Shown here piece after piece: positions 15,018 through 31,493 of a stretch of DNA of 36,286 nucleotides. The translations under genes and the position numbers were made by a program. Numbering within the stretch: the stretch's first letter is position 1; each line of letters opens with the position of its first letter. The stretch comes from a virus. Taxonomy: Duplodnaviria > Heunggongvirae > Uroviricota > Caudoviricetes. Below the pieces are notes generated by a model. It saw only the letters and a list, made by a program, of their open reading frames with translations, was not told the origin of the DNA and searched no databases. The DNA is taken from IMG/VR virus record IMGVR_UViG_2778261315_000002. One strand, written 5' to 3'.

Positions 15018-15363
15018 TCTCTGCTCCTGTTGATACGGAAAGGGAAACAGGCACACCGTTATTACGCCGCCCGGTCAGCTCCACCACCATAGAACCGTCA
15101 AAGTTGTTGTTGATGGTAATGGAATCCAGCGTCAGCCGTGGCTCCCAGCGACTCAGCGCCACATACACTGCCGACATGACCTGCAGTCGTAACGCCGGAT
15201 TTTGTGGCTGATCTATCAGTGCCGACAGCAGGGAACCATATTCCCGACGGGCAATGCGGCTACCCTGCGGCGTCAGCAGAATGTCCCGCACTGACTGGCG
15301 CAGATGGTCAATATCAGTAATGGCTTTACCGCTGGTATTGTTCATCCCGCTATAAAGCGTCAT
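15004..15363 (-). CDS. W: Baseplate protein W
   Basis: 119 aa; size and position match P2 gpW. Confidence 0.8.
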   Translation of the reverse strand: MTLYSGMNNTSGKAITDIDHLRQSVRDILLTPQGSRIARREYGSLLSALIDQPQNPALRLQVMSAVYVALSRWEPRLTLDSITINNNFDGSMVVELTGRRNNGVPVSLSVSTGAENGSD

Positions 15364-15938
15364 ACCGGGCCTCCGGTTGTGTCGCCGCCTTTCAGAACGC
15401 CAGTATGCTGATGCGCATCAACCACGATCCCGTTAGAACTCATCGCACCGCCGCCCTGGGTAACGCCACCATTGATCGCAACTTCGCTGTTAATGCGCGT
15501 GCGGTCAGCCTCCAGTACAAACTCACTGGTTTTCATGGTGATGTTGTCAGCGGCCTCAATGACCATTGATTTGATGCCCCTGACATACCAGCGCCCGGTG
15601 GCGGGTTCGTATTCAAACCAGCCACCGTCAGGATGTTCTGTCACGCAGACGTCCGCCGACGTTGACGGTGGAGCGAACTGATTCGAATAGATGGCGGGCA
15701 GCGCAAACGCGGTTTCCAGATTGCCTCCCAGACTCAGCAGCACTACCTGCTCACCTTCCGATGGTCGCCACCATGTCCGGGCATTCCCGGCACGCAGCGT
15801 CAGCCAGCTGATCCAGTTGGTTTCAAGCTCGCCCGTTTTCACCCGGCAAAGCCAATTCTCCCGGTCCACTTCGGTGACTACACCAGTGCGGATCAGGTTG
15901 GTGATAAGGCGCATGATTTCGGTTAATTGTGCGTTCAT
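15360..15938 (-). CDS. V: Baseplate spike / assembly protein V
   Basis: 192 aa; N-terminus MNAQLTEIMRLITNLIRTGVV resembles P2 gpV. Confidence 0.8.
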   Translation of the reverse strand: MNAQLTEIMRLITNLIRTGVVTEVDRENWLCRVKTGELETNWISWLTLRAGNARTWWRPSEGEQVVLLSLGGNLETAFALPAIYSNQFAPPSTSADVCVTEHPDGGWFEYEPATGRWYVRGIKSMVIEAADNITMKTSEFVLEADRTRINSEVAINGGVTQGGGAMSSNGIVVDAHQHTGVLKGGDTTGGPV

Positions 15939-15941
15939 AGG

Positions 15942-15971
15942 CTAATCCTGCACGAAAATGCACAGGATTAG
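15942..15971. repeat. Perfect 9-bp inverted repeat (ctaatcctg ... caggattag) between the TIR-like cargo gene and V
   Basis: Read directly from the sequence just upstream of the V start; no T-run follows on either strand, so it is not a classical intrinsic terminator. Confidence 0.4.
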
Positions 15972-16005
15972 TTAGCAAGGAAGATTGTGTTAACTACTAA
16001 ACAAT

Positions 16006-16821
16006 TCAGAGAGATGCTGTTTTGTTGAAGTAATCCTTCAATAACTCCATCTTAAAGATGACCTGGAGTTTACAACCGGGAAATGAATCATTTACAGTTA
16101 CAGTCATCCCCAGGAACTCAGACTGAACCTTTATCAAATCATTAGGTATTTTGTGAAGAATATCTCTAACTTCTTTCTCTACCGTTGTGGGAACCAAGTC
16201 AAAACTAACAATAAACTCACTTGACGAATTATGCTGAACTTTAGACTTTATTTCCTTTAAAGCTTTTTTAGACAAGTTGAGAATATCAAAAACTTTCTCA
16301 AGATTATCAAATAAAACATACCTGCGTTCAAAATCAACAACCTTAGCTGCTAATTCATTAAAATCAGTTCTGAGCCGCCCCCTAGCACCCACAGCTGATT
16401 GCAAAGACCTAAATGCAAACTCCAATTTAGATGCCATATTGGCCTCAATTGCATTCAGATTACAAATAGGTTGAGGCAACTCTTTAAAAACCATGCCCGA
16501 ATGGCAGAAAGGAAGTGTAGGAATATCTCCCAAACCAGCATTCTGATTTAGGGTATTTCTTATCCAGACAGCCCCTAATTCAAAGCTAATCCAACTTCTT
16601 TTCACAGAATTAGGACTGATTAAATATATAGCCGCAATACAATTAACAAGGCCATCTTCTATTACTTTTAGGAAATTTTGCCCAGCCTTAATCGTTTCTC
16701 CATCTGAAGATACAAAAACGCTGACAAATCCAGCAAACTCATCTTCGATTGCATCTTTAATGATTTTTGCCAATTCTTTTTCTTCAGTAATATGAGATAA
16801 AAAAATCAACTTCTCAGACAT
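16006..16821 (-). CDS. Cargo protein with N-terminal TIR-like domain and uncharacterised ~160-aa C-terminal domain (candidate anti-phage defence gene)
   Basis: 271 aa from the ATG at 16821 (AGAGAG Shine-Dalgarno; the track ORF starts at a TTG at 16839). N-terminus KLIFLSH...VSVFVSSDGETIKAGQNFL...IAAIYLISPNSVKRSWISFELG fits the TIR pattern. Region is markedly AT-rich and interrupts the S-V junction, which is contiguous in P2. Confidence 0.55.
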   Translation of the reverse strand: MSEKLIFLSHITEEKELAKIIKDAIEDEFAGFVSVFVSSDGETIKAGQNFLKVIEDGLVNCIAAIYLISPNSVKRSWISFELGAVWIRNTLNQNAGLGDIPTLPFCHSGMVFKELPQPICNLNAIEANMASKLEFAFRSLQSAVGARGRLRTDFNELAAKVVDFERRYVLFDNLEKVFDILNLSKKALKEIKSKVQHNSSSEFIVSFDLVPTTVEKEVRDILHKIPNDLIKVQSEFLGMTVTVNDSFPGCKLQVIFKMELLKDYFNKTASL

Positions 16822-16937
16822 CACATACTCTCTAACCAATTGATAGATTTACAATTTAGCAAGAAAGAAAATGTGATACTAAGAAGAAGATCATAAAATC
16901 AGTATCTTCCCCAAAGAATCTTTCTCTAATCAGCACC

Positions 16938-17381
16938 TTAAGAAAACCATCTAATCAATATATCGCGAGTTAAATTTTCAACATCATCATTAACGCCCAA
17001 CAAACGCCGCTCTGCGTAACGCACCTCCGGTCCCTTACGACTGACGCGATCTCGCAGGCCGTAATGGTGAACGCGGGCAATGCGCTGCACCTTGCCTTCA
17101 AACTGCACGCTGGCAGAGTCGGCGCTGGCGGCAGTTTTCAGGTATTTTGTGGTGCGCAGCTTTGTAAACATCTGACGTTTGATACGGCCTTTTTTACTGC
17201 GTGCTGTTACCCGTCGCGGTTCATAGCTGCTGCCGTCAGGGTTGCGCTGCATCCTGATATTCTGCTGCTGTGTCCGGCGCAGTTCCTGCGCCAGCTGGCG
17301 CATCATGCGGCTTCTTGCGGCTGGTTCCAGATTCGCCAGCAAAGCACTCAGCCAGTCGTCCACCTTCTGCAGTTCAGCCAC
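16938..17381 (-). CDS. S: Tail completion protein S
   Basis: 147 aa; size and position match P2 gpS. Confidence 0.8.
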   Translation of the reverse strand: MAELQKVDDWLSALLANLEPAARSRMMRQLAQELRRTQQQNIRMQRNPDGSSYEPRRVTARSKKGRIKRQMFTKLRTTKYLKTAASADSASVQFEGKVQRIARVHHYGLRDRVSRKGPEVRYAERRLLGVNDDVENLTRDILIRWFS

Positions 17382-25720: not shown

Positions 25721-26404
25721 TTAATTTGAAGAATCTTTTTTGAAGGTATCCAAATACCCTCTCAAATCAAAATCTTTATTACCCCTAAATTTTTCAACAT
25801 CTTTCTTGTCTGCATCTCTTTGTTCTCTAATCTTCTTGTTTAGTTTTTCAATCAAAGATTGTCTTTCGGCCTCTATTTCTTTTATTTTTTCAAAATGGAG
25901 TTTCGCCTTTCGTGCTTCTTCAGTCTTTACAATTATTTCATAACAAACACACAAAAGAAAACAAACCGTGGAAACGGTCATCCCTGCATCCACAACTATG
26001 AAGTAACCAATATCAACATTTTCTTTTATCTTATCTAAAGGCACAATCAAACATCCAAGAACCATAAAAAGCCCCACCACAAGATAAATAAAATTAATAG
26101 AGTTACGATAACTCAATTTAAAATATTCATCTTTTTGAGCTTCAAATAATTCCACCACATTACTTGGAGCCTTACTGTTTAACTCAATATCTTTAATCTT
26201 ATCCTGATAATCCACAAATCTTTTTACCAGCAAACCAATTAAAATAGCACCAATTAAAGATAATGCTTTAGATATAAGAGAACCAATTTCTAACAATATA
26301 CCAGTCTGATTGTAAATCCCATAAAAAACAGAAGCGAAAAGTCCCCCTATCAAGATAGATAAGCTCAACTGTATAATAAAACGCTCTATTCTTTTATTAA
26401 TCAT
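25721..26404 (-). CDS. Cargo operon gene 2: small integral membrane protein (4 predicted TM helices, Lys/Glu-rich coiled-coil tail); candidate defence or abortive-infection effector
   Basis: 227 aa from the ATG at 26404, which overlaps the upstream stop (ATGA); hydrophobic stretches FIIQLSLSILIGGLFASVFYGIY, ILLEIGSLISKALSLIGAILIGLLV, FIYLVVGLFMVLGCLIVPL, GYFIVVDAGMTVSTVCFLLCVCYEIIV; AT-rich. Confidence 0.5.
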   Translation of the reverse strand: MINKRIERFIIQLSLSILIGGLFASVFYGIYNQTGILLEIGSLISKALSLIGAILIGLLVKRFVDYQDKIKDIELNSKAPSNVVELFEAQKDEYFKLSYRNSINFIYLVVGLFMVLGCLIVPLDKIKENVDIGYFIVVDAGMTVSTVCFLLCVCYEIIVKTEEARKAKLHFEKIKEIEAERQSLIEKLNKKIREQRDADKKDVEKFRGNKDFDLRGYLDTFKKDSSN

Positions 26405-27396
26405 GGATTTATCACCCCAGCATCCAACAACCTTAACAACCATTCAACCATTTCATCACAAACACTATCAACAACTGGTAAACCCTTACTATATTCAATG
26501 CTAACATTGTCTTTTATTTGAATCTCATCATTTTTCAAAATCCCTGCACCTTTTAACTCAATAGTCAACATTTCATCCCTGTTATCAATTAGCCCCTCGG
26601 TTATCTTCCGAAGTAAATCTTGCTCATTATCACTGGCTCGATATTTATAACCAATAGAAATATCAATTGTAAGGTGTTCCTTTATTTCTGTATCAGGGGT
26701 ACTGTTTTTACGCAATTCTTCAACACGATGCTCACCAATTAAAGAACGCAATAACTCACTAGCAGCATCGTCAACGCCATTACCATTATATGTCAACGGC
26801 AGTTTTAAACTAACATTTTTAATGTTATTTCTTCTCAAGAATTCATTACTAATGCTTAAATTATTTGCCTGCAAAACAATAAAGTTTTCAACATCTACTC
26901 GTAGATTTTCCTTTAAAATAAAATTAATGTAATTTTCAATGTCTTTTATTCTTATTGCTCTACTTTGTAAAATCACGACATGATTCTTAACAACACCAAT
27001 ATAGGCAAAACTATCCAAATATTCTTTAACATCGCCACCCGCAATTCTGAAAGCCTCATATTCCAATTTCGGATTTTTATATTCCGTAACATCAAATACT
27101 GGAATACTTCCGCCAGGCTCTATGTACACAATTTCTGCAAAGAACATTCCGTTACGTTCAAATGAATTTGACATAACCATATGAGCATGCGTTGCCACAT
27201 CAGGATCAGAGTCCTTCGTTTCTAGAAAATGAACTCTATCTTGAACAGTACGAAACTTATGAGTCACAATCTCAGATAATCTGCTTTGTAAGTCTGATGT
27301 TAAAAGTGCATCTTTTTTAGGAAGCATAACTGCATGTCTGTAATGCAGTGCCTTGATTTTGGTATTGTTAGCAGCCATATAATTTCCAGTTTCCAT
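26401..27396 (-). CDS. Cargo operon gene 1: soluble protein of unknown function (candidate defence sensor or enzyme)
   Basis: 331-aa ORF (alternative ATG 6 codons in); no motif I can assign; AT-rich; translationally coupled to the downstream membrane protein. Confidence 0.5.
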   Translation of the reverse strand: METGNYMAANNTKIKALHYRHAVMLPKKDALLTSDLQSRLSEIVTHKFRTVQDRVHFLETKDSDPDVATHAHMVMSNSFERNGMFFAEIVYIEPGGSIPVFDVTEYKNPKLEYEAFRIAGGDVKEYLDSFAYIGVVKNHVVILQSRAIRIKDIENYINFILKENLRVDVENFIVLQANNLSISNEFLRRNNIKNVSLKLPLTYNGNGVDDAASELLRSLIGEHRVEELRKNSTPDTEIKEHLTIDISIGYKYRASDNEQDLLRKITEGLIDNRDEMLTIELKGAGILKNDEIQIKDNVSIEYSKGLPVVDSVCDEMVEWLLRLLDAGVINP

Positions 27397-28290: not shown

Positions 28291-30663
28291 TTAATACAGG
28301 TTTCGCCACTTATCATCTTCCTGCAAACGCTGGTTCCGATAGAAGATACGCAGGCCTGCTCCTGATGGAATACTGCCGCCGCGAAGCAGTAAATCGACCT
28401 CTTTCTCGCTGCCATCAATTCCCCTGGACTTCAGTTCATACACGAGCTGCTGTCGCTGATGATCTGTAATTCGCTGTTTGTAGTCTTTAAGCCGTTTCGG
28501 TTTCACAAGGCGTAACCTTGCTGCCAGTTCCCGGCGCTCTTTTTTGCTCATACTGTGCAGGTAATCGTGCAACTCCTTGTCATCCATGCGAGTGATATCC
28601 GTTCTGGTATCTCCATCAGCTGATTTGTCTTTCCCTTGTTGGTACAAATTTTCAGCAAGGGGACAGTTATTGCCACGAGTCCAAGGGGCGCAAGCGCCCT
28701 GGTCGGCTGCCGCCTCCTGAACGTCAACGGCTTTACGAACCATTTTCCACTTCACTGCATGAGTGCAGATCTTGCCCTCTGCAATGGGTGACCAGATGCC
28801 ATAAATACGAATACCGTGATCGCCATAGGCGGTCGGCTCTTCGTTGATTTCATAAGCGGTTCTGATGAGGTGATATTTACGGGGAACCAGTACGCCGCCC
28901 TGCTTCATGATGTAGGTGGCAAAGCAACCAGCATCAGCTGCAGCCAGAATGGCATCAAGGCGCGGGTTATCCAGTACCGGCGCACCTGCTTTTTTGTCAC
29001 CCTGTTGCCTTGCCGCCTGACCAGCCAGCAATCGCAGTTCACGGTAAGCCTGACGCCCCGGAATGCCAAAGAAGCGGAATTGCTGAACACGATGCAGAGA
29101 CGCCCAGGCATTAACGTATTCAGCGTTATCACGCAGAGATTTACCCGTTTCCTTGCTGATCTCGCCAGCCAGACCACGCCCGTCAATGTTCTTACTGATG
29201 TATTTCGCGATGTAGCTTGTTGGCGTACCTTTGCGCGGGTTAATCAACTCAGACTTAAAGCGCGGCCCAGTGTTATTGCCCAGTTCCTCGCGGTCTTCAC
29301 GGATGGCAAACTTACGCAGTAATGCAGTGATGGCGCGGCGGTCTTTTTTGCGCATAAAACACAACAGGTGCCAGTGAACTGTACCGTCATGATGCGGCTC
29401 AGCCACCCGCACGCCATACCACCGCAATCCGGCTTTGTGCATCGCCTTACGAAATGCAGCAAACATGCCGACCAGATAATCACTGCTTTGTCTTACCGTC
29501 GCATTTGTCCAAGTTGGGTTGGGCCTGCCATTATTTAGCGTGGAATGGAAACGTGACGGACAGGTGATGGTGTAGAAAACGGCGCAGTCACCGCGCATTT
29601 CCGCGATAAGCTCCAGGCCTTTAACACAGGCCATCATCTCATTGCGGCGATGCGCAGGGTTGCTGCTGCTGGCGTTTACCACATCCTCCATGTCCAGCGT
29701 GTCGCCGTCTTCGTTCACCAGTTCATGAGAACGAAAAAACTCCAGCGACTTACGGCGCTGCTCACGTTTATGCATCACGGCTTCATAGCTGACATAGGGA
29801 GATGCTTTTTTGCTGACCAGGCAGACAGCACGCAACTGCTCTTCCCGCCATTCGCAACGCATCTTCCATAATTTCCGGTACCACCAGTCAGCGCACAACA
29901 TACGCGCCAGCGAACCCGGAATGAGTTCATAGGGCACGGGTTTACGGCGGTTTCTTTTCCGGCGGAGTTGCTCAAACGCAGGCGGGATGACATCCAGACG
30001 CAGGGTTTCCGCTGCCACCTTTTCCCATGTCTTGCGGATTTCTTCTGGCTTAACGTCATCGGTGACATACAAATCGCCACAAGCTGCATCAAGGCACATG
30101 CTCATATGCGCAGCTACCAGGGTGGACAGGCGTTTCACCTGATCCTGACTCATTTCAGGCAGGATCAGCAGGCCGTCCAGCCCTTCATGGCTTGCCATAA
30201 AGCGAAAAGAAGTGGATAGCTGACAGTCGCGTACATGCTCCAGCCGTTCCAGACATGGCTTAATCGTCTCACGCAAATAGCGGGAATAAGCCTTTGGCCT
30301 GCCCAGGCTGCTGATGTATTCAATACGTTGCATCAGCGGCTTGCTGATATGGGAAGGCTGGGCATTGACGTCCGCCAGAATGACCATATCTGGATTAAAA
30401 CGCTGCTGCTCATGCGCCAGCTTTGCCCGACTAATGAGCTTATCCTGCTCCATTTCGCGCTGGACAGGATCACGGGATTCATTAAAGAAATAACGCTCCC
30501 AGACCTGATCACTCAGTGCCTCGCGGCGCAGCTGTTCCTGCTCGTTATCGGCAGCGTACAGAGCGATCAGGTTTGAAAGCGCAGAAACTGAAGATTGCTC
30601 TTCTGTCTCTACGTAAGGATTGATTGCTTTTTTCTCAGCATTCCAGGAATAGCTGTAGTTCAT
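28291..30663 (-). CDS. A: Replication initiation endonuclease A (rolling-circle initiator, HUH motif)
   Basis: About 790 aa from the ATG at 30663 (the track ORF extends to a TTG at 30714); HUH-like VHWHLLCF motif and downstream Tyr-containing region (YIAKYISK); P2 gpA position and similarity. Confidence 0.85.
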
Positions 30664-31493
30664 TACGCAATCTCCAGTTCGAGCTGTGAAGGCTGCAAAC
30701 CATTCGACAGCCAATCAGAAACTGAAGGTGGGCGAACAGCTTCAATTGCACCTTTTAAAATTGCGCAACGGTTTTTCAGAATGACAGCTTTCAGCTCCTT
30801 TTCCGTCAGATTGCGCGAATACTCAGCCTCCTGAATAGCCCGCGTCAGCTCAGGATATTTGCTATTAAATTTGGGGACATTGCAGGCAAGATTTGTACTG
30901 TCGGCAGTCGCCAGTGGGTAATTTCCCAACACACGACCGTCAAGCATGCGCAAACCATGAACAGCTGTTTTGAAATTGTGTCGGCAATAAATTGCTTCAA
31001 AAGCGTCCTGCATACGACGATGCCAGTGCGCAGTTCTGATAGCCGCATATTCACCAGACGATCCAAAGCAGACACGAGGCCATTCACGACATAGCTCGAT
31101 AAGCCGATCGATTGACTCGTGCAGATGCCAGACCGGAGTTGCCTTCCCGTAGAACATTTTCGGAACTTCGTTTATCAGGGCATCATTGTCACGTTCACCT
31201 CCGTCCACAACATCAGGAATGACAAAAAAAGCGACCTTAGGATGGTGGTAATAGTTCAGGAGCCATTTATAAAAATCACTCCAGTTAATTTTTAGCCCAC
31301 GCACCCATGCAGAAAATGCGCCGTTATCAATGCCGACGACCTGAGCGTGCTGAATGGACGCCGCAATCTGATCTGGTCGTACATAGGATACGAAAGCGCC
31401 AGCTCCGCTCACCGCAATACGATGAACGTCGCCAGCACTTCCCCAGACAGGCGTCCCATGGAAATGATGAATTCCGTGGTGCATTTCTTTCAC
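30663..31493 (-). CDS. Hypothetical protein between dam and A; possible TIM-barrel transglycosylase-like (TGT/DpdA-like) DNA-modification enzyme, speculative
   Basis: 276-aa ORF overlapping both neighbours (GTGA with the dam stop, TAATG with the A start). Motifs [17 protein letters not shown] and LATADST loosely parallel the three Asp-containing motifs of tRNA-guanine transglycosylases; this is a weak, by-eye resemblance only. Confidence 0.3.

What the first reader, a model, noticed from the sequence alone, without database searches (positions are those of the whole stretch)
16006..16937. AT-rich single-gene insertion encoding a TIR-like protein between tail genes S and V
In P2-type genomes S is followed directly by V. 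Here a 0.9-kb AT-rich block carries one gene whose N-terminal ~110 aa fit the TIR pattern (KLIFLSH, VSVFVSSDG, IAAIYLISPNS, SWISFELG), followed by ~160 aa with no motif I recognise. Bacterial TIR domains are NAD+-consuming or signalling modules in several anti-phage systems (Thoeris ThsB, TIR-containing CBASS and retron effectors). No ThsA-like partner is visible in the window, so this may be a stand-alone TIR defence or abortive-infection gene carried at an S/V locus.
Basis: partly seen in the sequence, partly recalled or inferred. Interest (0 to 1): 0.8.

Follow-up and report, generated by a model that had tools for sequence, protein, structure and literature searches.

The report
Prophage TIR defence gene between S/V
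A P2/186-like E. coli prophage carries, between tail genes S and V, a swappable AT-rich cassette encoding a 271-aa protein with a conserved TIR enzyme module and a hypervariable tail. It is most likely a one-protein anti-phage sensor-killer of a known general kind, from a family that is unnamed and, as far as I could find, untested.

Summary
A 271-aa ORF (16006-16821, minus strand) lies in a 35% GC block inside a ~55% GC tail-gene region. It passes Pfam's TIR_2 threshold. A confident AlphaFold model matches solved TIR domains, and the catalytic-type glutamate (E81, WxxxE motif) is invariant in 53 relatives.

The S/V junction is a variable cargo site. It is empty in about two thirds of sampled related E. 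coli prophages. Elsewhere it holds other alleles of this TIR gene, a SIR2 gene, DUF6216, DUF5677 or unknown ORFs. P2 itself carries Orf30 there, so "S is followed directly by V" is not generally true.

The family spans several phyla and is often phage-borne. No partner gene recurs across the contexts examined. Residues 1-168 average 69% pairwise identity; residues 169-271 average 23% and show no recognisable fold.

Best reading: a stand-alone TIR sensor-effector. The variable C-terminus senses an invading phage, the TIR domains oligomerise, NAD+ is destroyed and infection aborts, as with SpbK and the single-protein E. coli TIR systems. No defence activity has been tested here. It is a new member of a known kind and of moderate interest.

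The parts
16006..16821 (-). CDS of the 271-aa TIR-domain protein (stop TGA at 16008..16006)
   Evidence: ORF list and sequence. Same CDS annotated in RefSeq as a TIR domain-containing protein. Pfam TIR_2 above gathering threshold.
16318..16821 (-). Codons 1-168: conserved TIR module. The TIR fold covers aa 4-145 and is followed by the start of a long helix. Includes FLSH (aa 7-10), SSDG (38-41), the W77-x3-E81 catalytic-type motif and an invariant C106-H107-S108.
   Evidence: Mean pairwise identity 69% over 53 family members; 47 invariant columns. Foldseek probability 1.0 to BtTir, AbTir, SpbK and SPARTA TIR. dN/dS about 0.06-0.09 where computable.
16009..16317 (-). Codons 169-271: hypervariable C-terminal domain, predicted helix-helix-beta-alpha-beta-beta-alpha. 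Proposed specificity/sensor module.
16852..16861 (-). TGCTAAATTG: candidate extended -10 promoter element for the TIR gene, about 30 nt upstream of the ATG
   Evidence: TG(C/A)TAAATTG is conserved in four cassettes representing three divergent TIR alleles, although the spacer is otherwise about 74% identical. The generic promoter scan did not report it, so this is inference only.
16879..16894 (-). Conserved upstream box ATGATCTTCTTCTTAG in the S-TIR spacer (possible -35 or regulatory region)
   Evidence: ATGATC..CTCTTA is conserved across the alleles in alignment A4; position. Function not tested.
16938..16960 (-). AT-rich recoded 3' end of gene S (last ~7 codons plus stop); S-proximal boundary of the cassette
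   Evidence: Alignment to the empty-site phage 500465-1 loses homology here. The S tails differ between cassettes.
15985..16004 (-). TTGT-N12-ACAA dyad: late-gene activator (Ogr/B/delta-type) binding site of the V-operon promoter, starting 1 nt after the TIR stop codon
   Evidence: Conserved at the same register in the window, two other TIR alleles, a SIR2 cassette, an empty site and P2. P2's record annotates an activator-binding site for pV at the equivalent place; centre-to-V-start distance is 55.5 nt in P2 against 56.5 nt here.
15942..15971 (-). 12-bp hairpin between the dyad and the V start codon; probable terminator or insulator for TIR transcripts. It lacks a U-run in this allele.
   Evidence: dG -17.2 kcal/mol, z -5.5. 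Equivalent hairpins followed by U-runs occur in the other TIR cassettes (z -6.8 and -3.7). None at the empty site (z 0.13).
16938..17381 (-). Gene S (virion morphogenesis / tail completion); upstream flank, not part of the cargo except its last codons
   Evidence: Pfam Phage_tail_S in the syntenic gene
15360..15938 (-). Gene V (baseplate assembly / spike); downstream flank
   Evidence: Pfam Phage_base_V in the syntenic gene

Best explanation
The block is a mobile single-gene cargo cassette in the S/V junction of a P2/186-like prophage. This junction is a recombination-prone accessory-gene site lying between the end of the upstream late (S-containing) operon and the activator site of the V-operon promoter.

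The gene encodes a one-polypeptide anti-phage immune protein. The proposed mechanism has four steps.
1. In the lysogen the gene is transcribed from its own AT-rich promoter (inferred).
2. The protein sits idle until its hypervariable ~100-aa C-terminal domain binds a component of a superinfecting phage, probably an abundant oligomeric structural protein (inferred by analogy).
3. Binding brings the conserved N-terminal TIR modules together, completing the composite NAD+-cleaving site around E81 (inferred from TIR enzymology).
4. NAD+ is destroyed and the infected cell stops supporting phage growth, protecting the clonal lysogen population and the prophage.

Shown here: the TIR fold, the invariant catalytic-type Glu, the single-gene architecture, the cassette-like swapping, the hotspot context and the conservation split between the two halves. 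Inferred: expression in the lysogen, the trigger, oligomerisation, NADase activity and the abortive outcome.
For: **TIR identity**
- Pfam TIR_2 above threshold.
- Sequence hits to solved NADase TIRs BtTir and AbTir, with E81 aligned to their WxxxE glutamate region.
- Confident model matching TIR structures at probability 1.0, including SpbK and SPARTA TIR-APAZ.
- E81, W77, S9 and H10 invariant in 53 relatives.

**Single-gene system**
- No neighbour recurs across Salmonella, E. coli, Enterobacter, Klebsiella, Aeromonas, Pseudomonas, Methylobacterium, Kordia, Vibrio and Streptococcus phage contexts.

**Mobile, host-beneficial cargo**
- Related phages have an empty site.
- Of 50 sampled E. coli S/V junctions, 32 are empty and 18 occupied: TIR x3, DUF6216 x5, SIR2 x1, DUF5677 x1, unknown x8. 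The SIR2 cargo resembles defence sirtuins: PADLOC LmuA 8e-22, ThsA 1e-19.
- Backbone flanks are 93-99% identical at nucleotide level between prophages whose TIR alleles are saturated at synonymous sites. This indicates swapping, not in-situ divergence.
- In K. aerogenes the TIR gene is intact while S is truncated and V is reduced to 46 codons. It sits beside Mrr and GmrSD genes and is indexed in 61 blocks of the sequence collection.
- 15 IMG/VR viral contigs carry the family; six have R-S-TIR-V-W.

**Sensor/effector split**
- N-module 69% against C-domain 23% mean identity.
- The exhaustive profile search finds 228 cluster representatives at E<=1e-30. Many match only positions 1-~170 and are fused to other, unannotated C-termini of 250-490 aa total length.

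**Own transcription signals**
- Conserved TGnTAAATT upstream and a hairpin downstream.

**Precedents**
- SpbK's non-TIR domain binds the phage portal and activates its TIR NADase; E192Q abolishes this (PMC11984713).
Against: - No experiment on this family was found. PADLOC-DB 2023 and NCBIfam 2026 hold no full-length model for it; hits are partial and cover the TIR only. PHROG 29177 is 'unknown function'.
- The gene is co-oriented with the late operons, and the generic sigma-70 scan found no promoter in the spacer. Expression in the lysogen is therefore unproven.
- This allele's hairpin lacks a U-tract.
- The C-domain's variability could reflect relaxed constraint rather than an arms race. dS is saturated, so positive selection could not be shown.
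- Many bacterial TIRs make signalling nucleotides rather than depleting NAD+. Sequence alone cannot tell which applies here.
Confidence: 0.6

Rival explanations
1. A signal-generating TIR, like ThsB of Thoeris. On sensing phage it converts NAD+ into a cyclic or modified ADPR messenger. The messenger activates an effector encoded elsewhere in the host or prophage, rather than the TIR killing by NAD+ depletion itself.
For: - Weak PADLOC ThsB hits, E 0.003-0.03.
- Some longer relatives touch Pfam ThsB_TIR at about threshold.
- ThsB proteins are also small TIR proteins that sense phage structural proteins (PMC11312562 abstract).
Against: - No ThsA/SLOG/Macro-type or any other recurrent neighbour in the 13 contexts examined.
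- The two other cargo ORFs in the window (old/tin hotspot) have no Pfam or PADLOC domain, and the family occurs without them.
- A messenger without a linked effector would not travel as a functional unit on a phage.
Confidence: 0.13
2. A phage-benefit function in the lytic cycle or in counter-defence. The gene would be read through from the late operon and would manipulate NAD+ metabolism, or interfere with host TIR immunity by hetero-oligomerising with host TIR proteins. It might also act against satellites such as P4.
For: - Same strand as S and V, with no canonical terminator after S and a U-less hairpin in this allele.
- The cassette sits inside the late gene cluster.
Against: - Absent from most closely related, evidently viable phages.
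- Kept intact in a decayed prophage remnant and in plain chromosomal sites with no phage.
- The invariant catalytic-type Glu argues for an active enzyme, not a decoy.
- The shared site also holds a SIR2 defence-like gene.
Confidence: 0.08
3. A Tcp-like virulence factor, comparable to TcpC, BtpA/TcpB or PumA. This would be a bacterial TIR protein delivered to animal cells to blunt Toll-like receptor signalling, carried as a lysogenic-conversion gene.
For: - Sequence and fold similarity to BtpA/TcpB and to TLR-adaptor TIR domains.
- The two E. coli carriers of this allele are human isolates.
Against: - The family is found in marine Flavobacteria, Vibrio, Methylobacterium, Pseudomonas and soil or animal E. 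coli, and in metagenomic viral contigs.
- No secretion signal or delivery partner was evident from the sequence and domain scans (not specifically tested).
- Similarity to the NADase TIRs BtTir and AbTir is stronger than to BtpA.
- A hypervariable C-terminus fits phage sensing better than a conserved eukaryotic target.
Confidence: 0.04
4. Functionless or selfish passenger: an AT-rich moron kept only because the S/V junction tolerates insertions.
For: Rare in E. coli, 22 of 5426 complete genomes. The site also holds many ORFs of unknown function.
Against: - Strong purifying selection on the N-module, dN/dS about 0.07 with saturated dS.
- 47 invariant residues across phyla.
- No truncated or frameshifted copy among the 10 P2-type loci read through.
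- Retained after the prophage decays.
Confidence: 0.03

Closest known systems
SpbK of Bacillus subtilis ICEBs1 (single-protein TIR abortive-infection system)
   Same: Carried by a mobile element, single gene, about 270 aa. One TIR NADase domain plus one small non-TIR domain that binds a phage structural protein (portal YonE). Catalytic Glu required (PMC11984713). The solved SpbK TIR filament (9phb) matches the model.
   Different: Domain order is reversed: sensor at the N-terminus and TIR at the C-terminus in SpbK. Sequence similarity is confined to about 85 TIR residues (PADLOC spbK E=5e-4, PDB 9phb E=0.1). The non-TIR domains are unrelated. Host phylum and carrier element differ.
Single-protein E. 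coli TIR systems TIR-V, TIR-VI, TIR-IX (Wang et al. 2024, Nat Commun, PMC11350192)
   Same: E. coli proteins in which only a short TIR domain is recognisable. They act alone, need the TIR active site, behave as abortive infection at high MOI, and are triggered by portal or tail-fibre proteins.
   Different: Identity with the present family could not be checked. Accession numbers are in Supplementary Data 2, which is not held. The paper does not discuss prophage location or an S/V locus ('prophage' occurs 0 times).
ThsB of Thoeris
   Same: Small bacterial TIR protein with a catalytic Glu that senses phage proteins (PMC11312562).
   Different: Thoeris is defined by an adjacent ThsA effector, and none is present. 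PADLOC ThsB models score only E 0.003-0.03.
P2 accessory-gene sites: old/tin, Z/fun and the Orf30 site between S and V
   Same: Same physical site as P2 Orf30, between the terminator that P2's record annotates after S and the pV activator site. Other P2-like phages carry different ORFs there (R18C, PMC6823313; Cartapus). A 2026 preprint reports defence systems 'within the late genes' and 'downstream of GpL' of P2-like prophages (10.64898/2026.02.27.708500).
   Different: Orf30 is unrelated in sequence and sits on the opposite strand. The published hotspot work concentrates on the A/Q (old/tin) and Z/fun sites. 'TIR', 'SIR2' and 'GpV' occur 0 times in the main text of the 2026 preprint, and 'orf30', 'tail genes' and 'gpS' occur 0 times in Rousset 2022.
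Rst_2TM-1TM-TIR of P2-like phage AC1 and TIR-NLR of P4 satellites (Rousset et al. 2022)
   Same: TIR-based defence carried by P2/P4-type elements in E. coli (PMC9122126).
   Different: Those are a three-gene system with membrane proteins at the old/tin hotspot and a large STAND-NTPase/TPR protein in P4. Here there is a single 271-aa soluble protein at S/V.
PADLOC candidate PDC-S66
   Same: Best PADLOC hit, E=3e-7.
   Different: Only aa 6-90 align, to positions 151-231 of a 282-position model. That model has its TIR at the other end, so this is not the same family.

Membership tests
TIR domain superfamily (Pfam PF13676 TIR_2) | Profile score above the curated gathering threshold | tested here: met
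   33.9 bits against cut-off 28, E=5e-8. All listed homologues but two carry PF13676.
TIR domain superfamily (Pfam PF13676 TIR_2) | Flavodoxin-like TIR fold | tested here: met
   AF2 pLDDT 87.7. Foldseek probability 1.0 to BtTir, AbTir, SpbK, TLR2, MAL, TRAM and SPARTA TIR.
Enzymatic (NADase-type) TIR domains | Catalytic glutamate in the alpha-C WxxxE motif | tested here: met
   W77-I-S-F-E81 aligns with the W-T-x-Y-E motif of AbTir and BtTir. E81 and W77 are invariant in 53 of 53 sequences. That this motif holds the catalytic Glu is established knowledge, not tested here.
Enzymatic (NADase-type) TIR domains | NAD+ cleavage activity | not testable with these tools
   Needs a biochemical or in-cell NAD+ assay.
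Thoeris (ThsA + ThsB) | TIR gene adjacent to a ThsA effector (SIR2/SLOG or Macro/TM) | tested here: not met
   The neighbours are tail genes S and V. No recurrent neighbour in the 13 contexts examined.
Thoeris (ThsA + ThsB) | Significant match to ThsB profiles | tested here: not met
   Best PADLOC ThsB E=0.003. Pfam ThsB_TIR not reported.
SpbK family | Full-length match: N-terminal portal-binding domain plus C-terminal TIR | tested here: not met
   PADLOC spbK E=4.7e-4, only aa 3-90 against model positions 148-236. Domain order reversed (PMC11984713).
CBASS/Pycsar TIR effectors (CAP12/PycTIR) | TIR fused to a nucleotide-sensing domain (SAVED, STING, cNMP-binding), with a cyclase gene nearby | tested here: not met
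   PF10137 E=0.087, 13.3 bits against cut-off 24.7. No sensor domain found. No cyclase neighbour.
Retron-TIR (NCBIfam NF042941) | Reverse transcriptase fused to TIR; score >= 600 bits | tested here: not met
   29.1 bits, TIR part only.
P2-type S/V accessory-gene site (Orf30 site) | Cargo lies between the stop of S and the TGT-N12-ACA activator site of the V promoter, and is absent from close relatives | tested here: met
   Boundaries. Dyad conserved in six junction types. P2 annotation. 32 empty against 18 occupied in a sample of E. coli relatives.
Anti-phage defence system (functional class) | Reduces phage plating when expressed in a naive host | not testable with these tools
   No experimental data found for this family.

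The most novel reading that the evidence does not exclude
This is the prototype of an unnamed, phylum-spanning family of single-chain bacterial and phage TIR immune receptors. A ~170-aa extended TIR module, carrying an invariant C-H-S triad besides the catalytic Glu, is a fixed effector. A ~100-aa C-terminal domain of unrecognised fold is a rapidly exchanged specificity module, with each allele tuned to a different phage protein. On the same reading, the S/V junction of P2-like phages is a further dedicated defence hotspot that trades NAD+-targeting cargo (TIR alleles, SIR2) by cassette exchange while preserving the V-operon promoter.
Probability: 0.4. Interest if true: 0.6.

Novelty: new member of a known kind. 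Interest (0 to 1): 0.45.

Why it matters
If confirmed, it would add a compact (816-nt) sensor-effector to the list of prophage-borne immune genes. It would also give a natural series of alleles with nearly the same TIR module but unrelated C-terminal domains. That series is a ready-made system for asking how a minimal TIR receptor recognises phage proteins and how specificity is swapped.

It would also establish the S/V junction as a defence-cargo site in P2-like phages, alongside old/tin and Z/fun. Several unknown ORFs already sit there (DUF6216, which is present in E. coli B/BL21, DUF5677, P2 Orf30 and others), and these would become candidates for new defence genes.

It does not change the general picture. 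TIR-based abortive infection and P2 hotspots are both established.

Full report
**1. What is in the sequence**

The finding's coordinates enclose one minus-strand ORF, 16006..16821 (ATG, 271 aa), plus a 116-nt spacer up to the stop of the S-like gene at 16938. GC is 35.3% over 16006-16937. The rest of the window is 51.5% and the flanking tail genes are 54-60%. The window is a P2/186-like E. coli prophage. An identical cassette in the same prophage occurs in two complete E. coli genomes, where RefSeq calls the gene "toll/interleukin-1 receptor domain-containing protein". S (16938..17381) and V (15360..15938) lie on the same strand.

**2. Is it a TIR protein?**

Yes.
- Pfam TIR_2 scores 33.9 bits against a gathering cut-off of 28.
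- phmmer against PDB sequences finds the bacterial NADase TIRs BtTir (4.5e-5) and AbTir. The segment SWISFELG aligns to their W-T-x-Y-E-L motif. By established knowledge of TIR enzymes, this motif carries the catalytic glutamate.
- An AlphaFold2 model built on 53 homologues is confident (pLDDT 87.7, pTM 0.80). Foldseek matches it at probability 1.0 to solved TIR domains from BtTir, AbTir, SpbK, SPARTA TIR-APAZ, TLR2, MAL and TRAM.
- E81 and W77, the FLSH strand and the SSDG loop are invariant in all 53 aligned relatives. So is an unexpected C106-H107-S108 triad.

**3. Architecture of the family**

The word-index search found 515 relatives. They are almost all 265-275 aa and come from Enterobacteria, Vibrio, Aeromonas, Pseudomonas, Methylobacterium and Flavobacteriia.

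An exhaustive profile search of 1.84 billion cluster representatives gave 228 hits at E<=1e-30 and 1487 at E<=1e-10. Many match only profile positions 1-~170 and have other C-termini, with totals of 250-490 aa. Those C-termini have no Pfam domain.

Within the 53-sequence alignment, residues 1-168 average 69% pairwise identity and residues 169-271 only 23%. Alleles that sit at the same S/V site in other prophages are 77-83% identical to the window protein in the N-module but only 10-19% in the C-domain.

**4. The locus**

- **Boundaries.** Alignment with the empty-site relative Escherichia phage 500465-1 shows that the foreign DNA replaces the last ~7 codons of S and the entire S-V spacer. It runs from about 16960 to about 15942.
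- **Promoter dyad kept.** One base after the TIR stop codon lies a TTGT-N12-ACAA dyad (16004..15985). The same dyad sits at the same distance from the V start codon in two other TIR cassettes, a SIR2 cassette, the empty site and P2 itself, where the record annotates it as the activator-binding site of the V promoter. Cargo is therefore inserted precisely between the end of the upstream late (S-containing) operon and the V promoter, leaving the latter intact.
- **Hairpin.** A strong hairpin (15971..15942, -17.2 kcal/mol, z -5.5) lies between the dyad and V. The other TIR cassettes have equivalent hairpins followed by U-runs, and the empty site has none.
- **Candidate promoter.** Upstream of the gene, TG(C/A)TAAATTG and an ATGATC..CTCTTA box are conserved across four cassettes representing three divergent alleles. 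I read the first as an extended -10 element. This is inference, since the generic scan did not flag it.

**5. The S/V junction is a variable cargo site**

P2 has the nonessential Orf30 there on the opposite strand. Phage Cartapus has another unrelated ORF. The R18C paper noted yet another (PMC6823313).

In an even-step sample of the 1057 E. coli records that share this backbone, 50 rows had both flanks joined. Of these:

| State of the junction | Rows |
|---|---|
| Empty (1273-nt span) | 32 |
| TIR (two allele types) | 3 |
| DUF6216 (including BL21 and ATCC 11303) | 5 |
| SIR2 | 1 |
| DUF5677 | 1 |
| Hypothetical proteins | 8 |

The SIR2 protein resembles defence sirtuins (PADLOC LmuA 8e-22, ThsA 1e-19). 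Only 22 of 5426 complete E. coli genomes carry any allele of the TIR family.

Backbone DNA flanking the site is 93-99% identical between prophages whose TIR alleles are only 73-83% identical in the 5' half, unalignable in the 3' half, and saturated at synonymous sites. The alleles were therefore exchanged as cassettes rather than diverging in place. A 2026 preprint on about 1500 P2-like prophages reports defence systems "within the late genes" and "downstream of GpL". Its main text does not contain the terms TIR, SIR2 or GpV.

**6. Where else the gene lives**

- The same S-TIR-V arrangement is found in Salmonella, E. coli and Enterobacter.
- Six of 15 IMG/VR viral contigs show the same arrangement, including one with a much more divergent backbone (S 61%, V 63%).
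- One P2-like contig carries the gene next to the tail-fibre genes instead.
- It also lies in a different Aeromonas prophage (Mu-like head genes and a tape-measure gene nearby), in a Methylobacterium locus with a phage-lysozyme gene (possibly a prophage), and in Streptococcus phage Javan47 between the late activator and terS.
- It stands alone in Pseudomonas, Kordia and Vibrio chromosomes.
- In Klebsiella aerogenes it survives intact between a truncated S and a 46-codon stump of V, beside Mrr and GmrSD genes. This copy is indexed in 61 blocks of the sequence collection.

No neighbouring gene recurs, so the unit of function is the single gene.

**7. Mechanism proposed**

The N-module is under strong purifying selection (dN/dS about 0.07 where computable) and keeps the catalytic-type Glu. 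The C-domain is free to vary or is replaced outright. This is the pattern of a fixed effector joined to an evolving recognition module.

The closest worked example is SpbK. It is a mobile-element-borne ~270-aa protein whose non-TIR domain binds the phage portal, after which TIR NADase activity depletes NAD+ and aborts infection; E192Q abolishes this (PMC11984713). Wang et al. 2024 found single-protein E. coli TIR systems (TIR-V, -VI, -IX) that need the TIR active site and are triggered by portal or tail-fibre proteins (PMC11350192).

I therefore propose a sequence of events. The gene is expressed at a low constitutive level in the lysogen. The C-domain recognises an oligomeric phage protein. 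The TIR modules cluster, NAD+ is cleaved and infection is aborted. Only the anatomy is shown here; expression, trigger, oligomerisation and chemistry are inferred.

Rivals, in order of likelihood:
1. A ThsB-like signal generator working with an unlinked effector.
2. A lytic-cycle or counter-defence role.
3. A Tcp-like virulence factor.
4. A functionless passenger.

Details are given under the rival explanations.

**8. Comparison and novelty**

The protein is a bona fide TIR-domain protein. It occupies the known P2 Orf30-type accessory site. It fails the membership tests for Thoeris, SpbK, CBASS/Pycsar TIR effectors, retron-TIR and PADLOC PDC-S66. It works most like SpbK and the single-protein E. 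coli TIR systems. Whether it is one of the latter could not be checked, because the accession table is not held.

The finding is a new, unnamed and apparently uncharacterised member of a well-established kind.

**9. Verdict**

Novelty is modest, and interest is moderate (0.45). The most useful outputs are three: the clean effector/sensor split across a natural allele series, the precise cassette anatomy that preserves the V promoter, and the evidence that S/V is a further defence-type hotspot holding several unknown candidate genes.

Noticed in passing
window 25721-27396 (minus strand; AT-rich island about 25.1-27.8 kb, about 31% GC): Two overlapping ORFs (240 and 331 aa) lie between the portal gene and the replication gene, which is the classical old/tin defence hotspot of P2-like phages. 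Neither has a Pfam or PADLOC hit. The larger matches PHROG 3482 'unknown function'. This is a candidate uncharacterised two-gene defence system.
   Followed up: partly
L014 918-2123 (E. coli LR-45, NZ_AP027532): A 401-aa SIR2-family protein occupies the same S/V junction in the same orientation. It resembles Lamassu LmuA-SIR2 and ThsA SIR2 domains (PADLOC 8e-22 and 1e-19). It is a second NAD+-targeting cargo at this site.
   Followed up: partly
L016 943-1749 (E. coli BL21, NZ_CP060121); also ATCC 11303 and others: The P2-like prophage of E. coli B/BL21 carries a 268-aa DUF6216 protein at S/V on the opposite strand. This was the commonest named cargo in the sample (5 of 18 occupied sites). It has no PADLOC, Pfam or PHROG hit, and its function is unknown in a workhorse strain.
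   Followed up: partly
L015 918-1937 (E. coli MINF_1D): A 339-aa DUF5677 protein (PHROG 27456, unknown function) is another S/V cargo, on the opposite strand.
   Followed up: no
L020/L022 2426-4013 (Klebsiella aerogenes and a metagenome): A prophage remnant consists only of a truncated S, an intact 266-aa TIR gene and 46 codons of V. It sits next to Mrr_cat and GmrSD genes and is indexed in 61 blocks of the sequence collection. It looks like a domesticated defence gene in a small defence island.
   Followed up: partly
window 16498-16506 (codons C106-H107-S108 of the TIR gene): An invariant Cys-His-Ser triad at the end of the predicted beta-D strand (PFCHSG) is conserved in all 53 relatives. 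I am not aware of it as part of the canonical TIR motif set (this was not checked), and its role is unexplained.
   Followed up: no
window 15942-15971 versus L007 7847-7875 and L004: The hairpin after the TIR gene lacks the U-run that follows the equivalent hairpins in the other alleles. It also overlaps the core region of the V promoter. It could affect both TIR termination and V-operon expression.
   Followed up: partly
L001 32342-36052 (E. coli 23CRST001, NZ_AP045758): In the otherwise near-identical prophage of strain 23CRST001 the replication endonuclease gene is split by an IS4-like ISVsa5 element. In the window the corresponding ORF (28291-30714, 807 aa) is intact. The TIR cassette therefore persists in a prophage that can probably no longer replicate.
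   Followed up: no
L017 4001-4753 (Streptococcus phage Javan47, MK448768): A 250-aa homologue (32% identity over aa 1-191) sits between the late transcriptional activator and terS of a Streptococcus agalactiae temperate phage. The family is therefore also phage cargo in Firmicutes.
   Followed up: no
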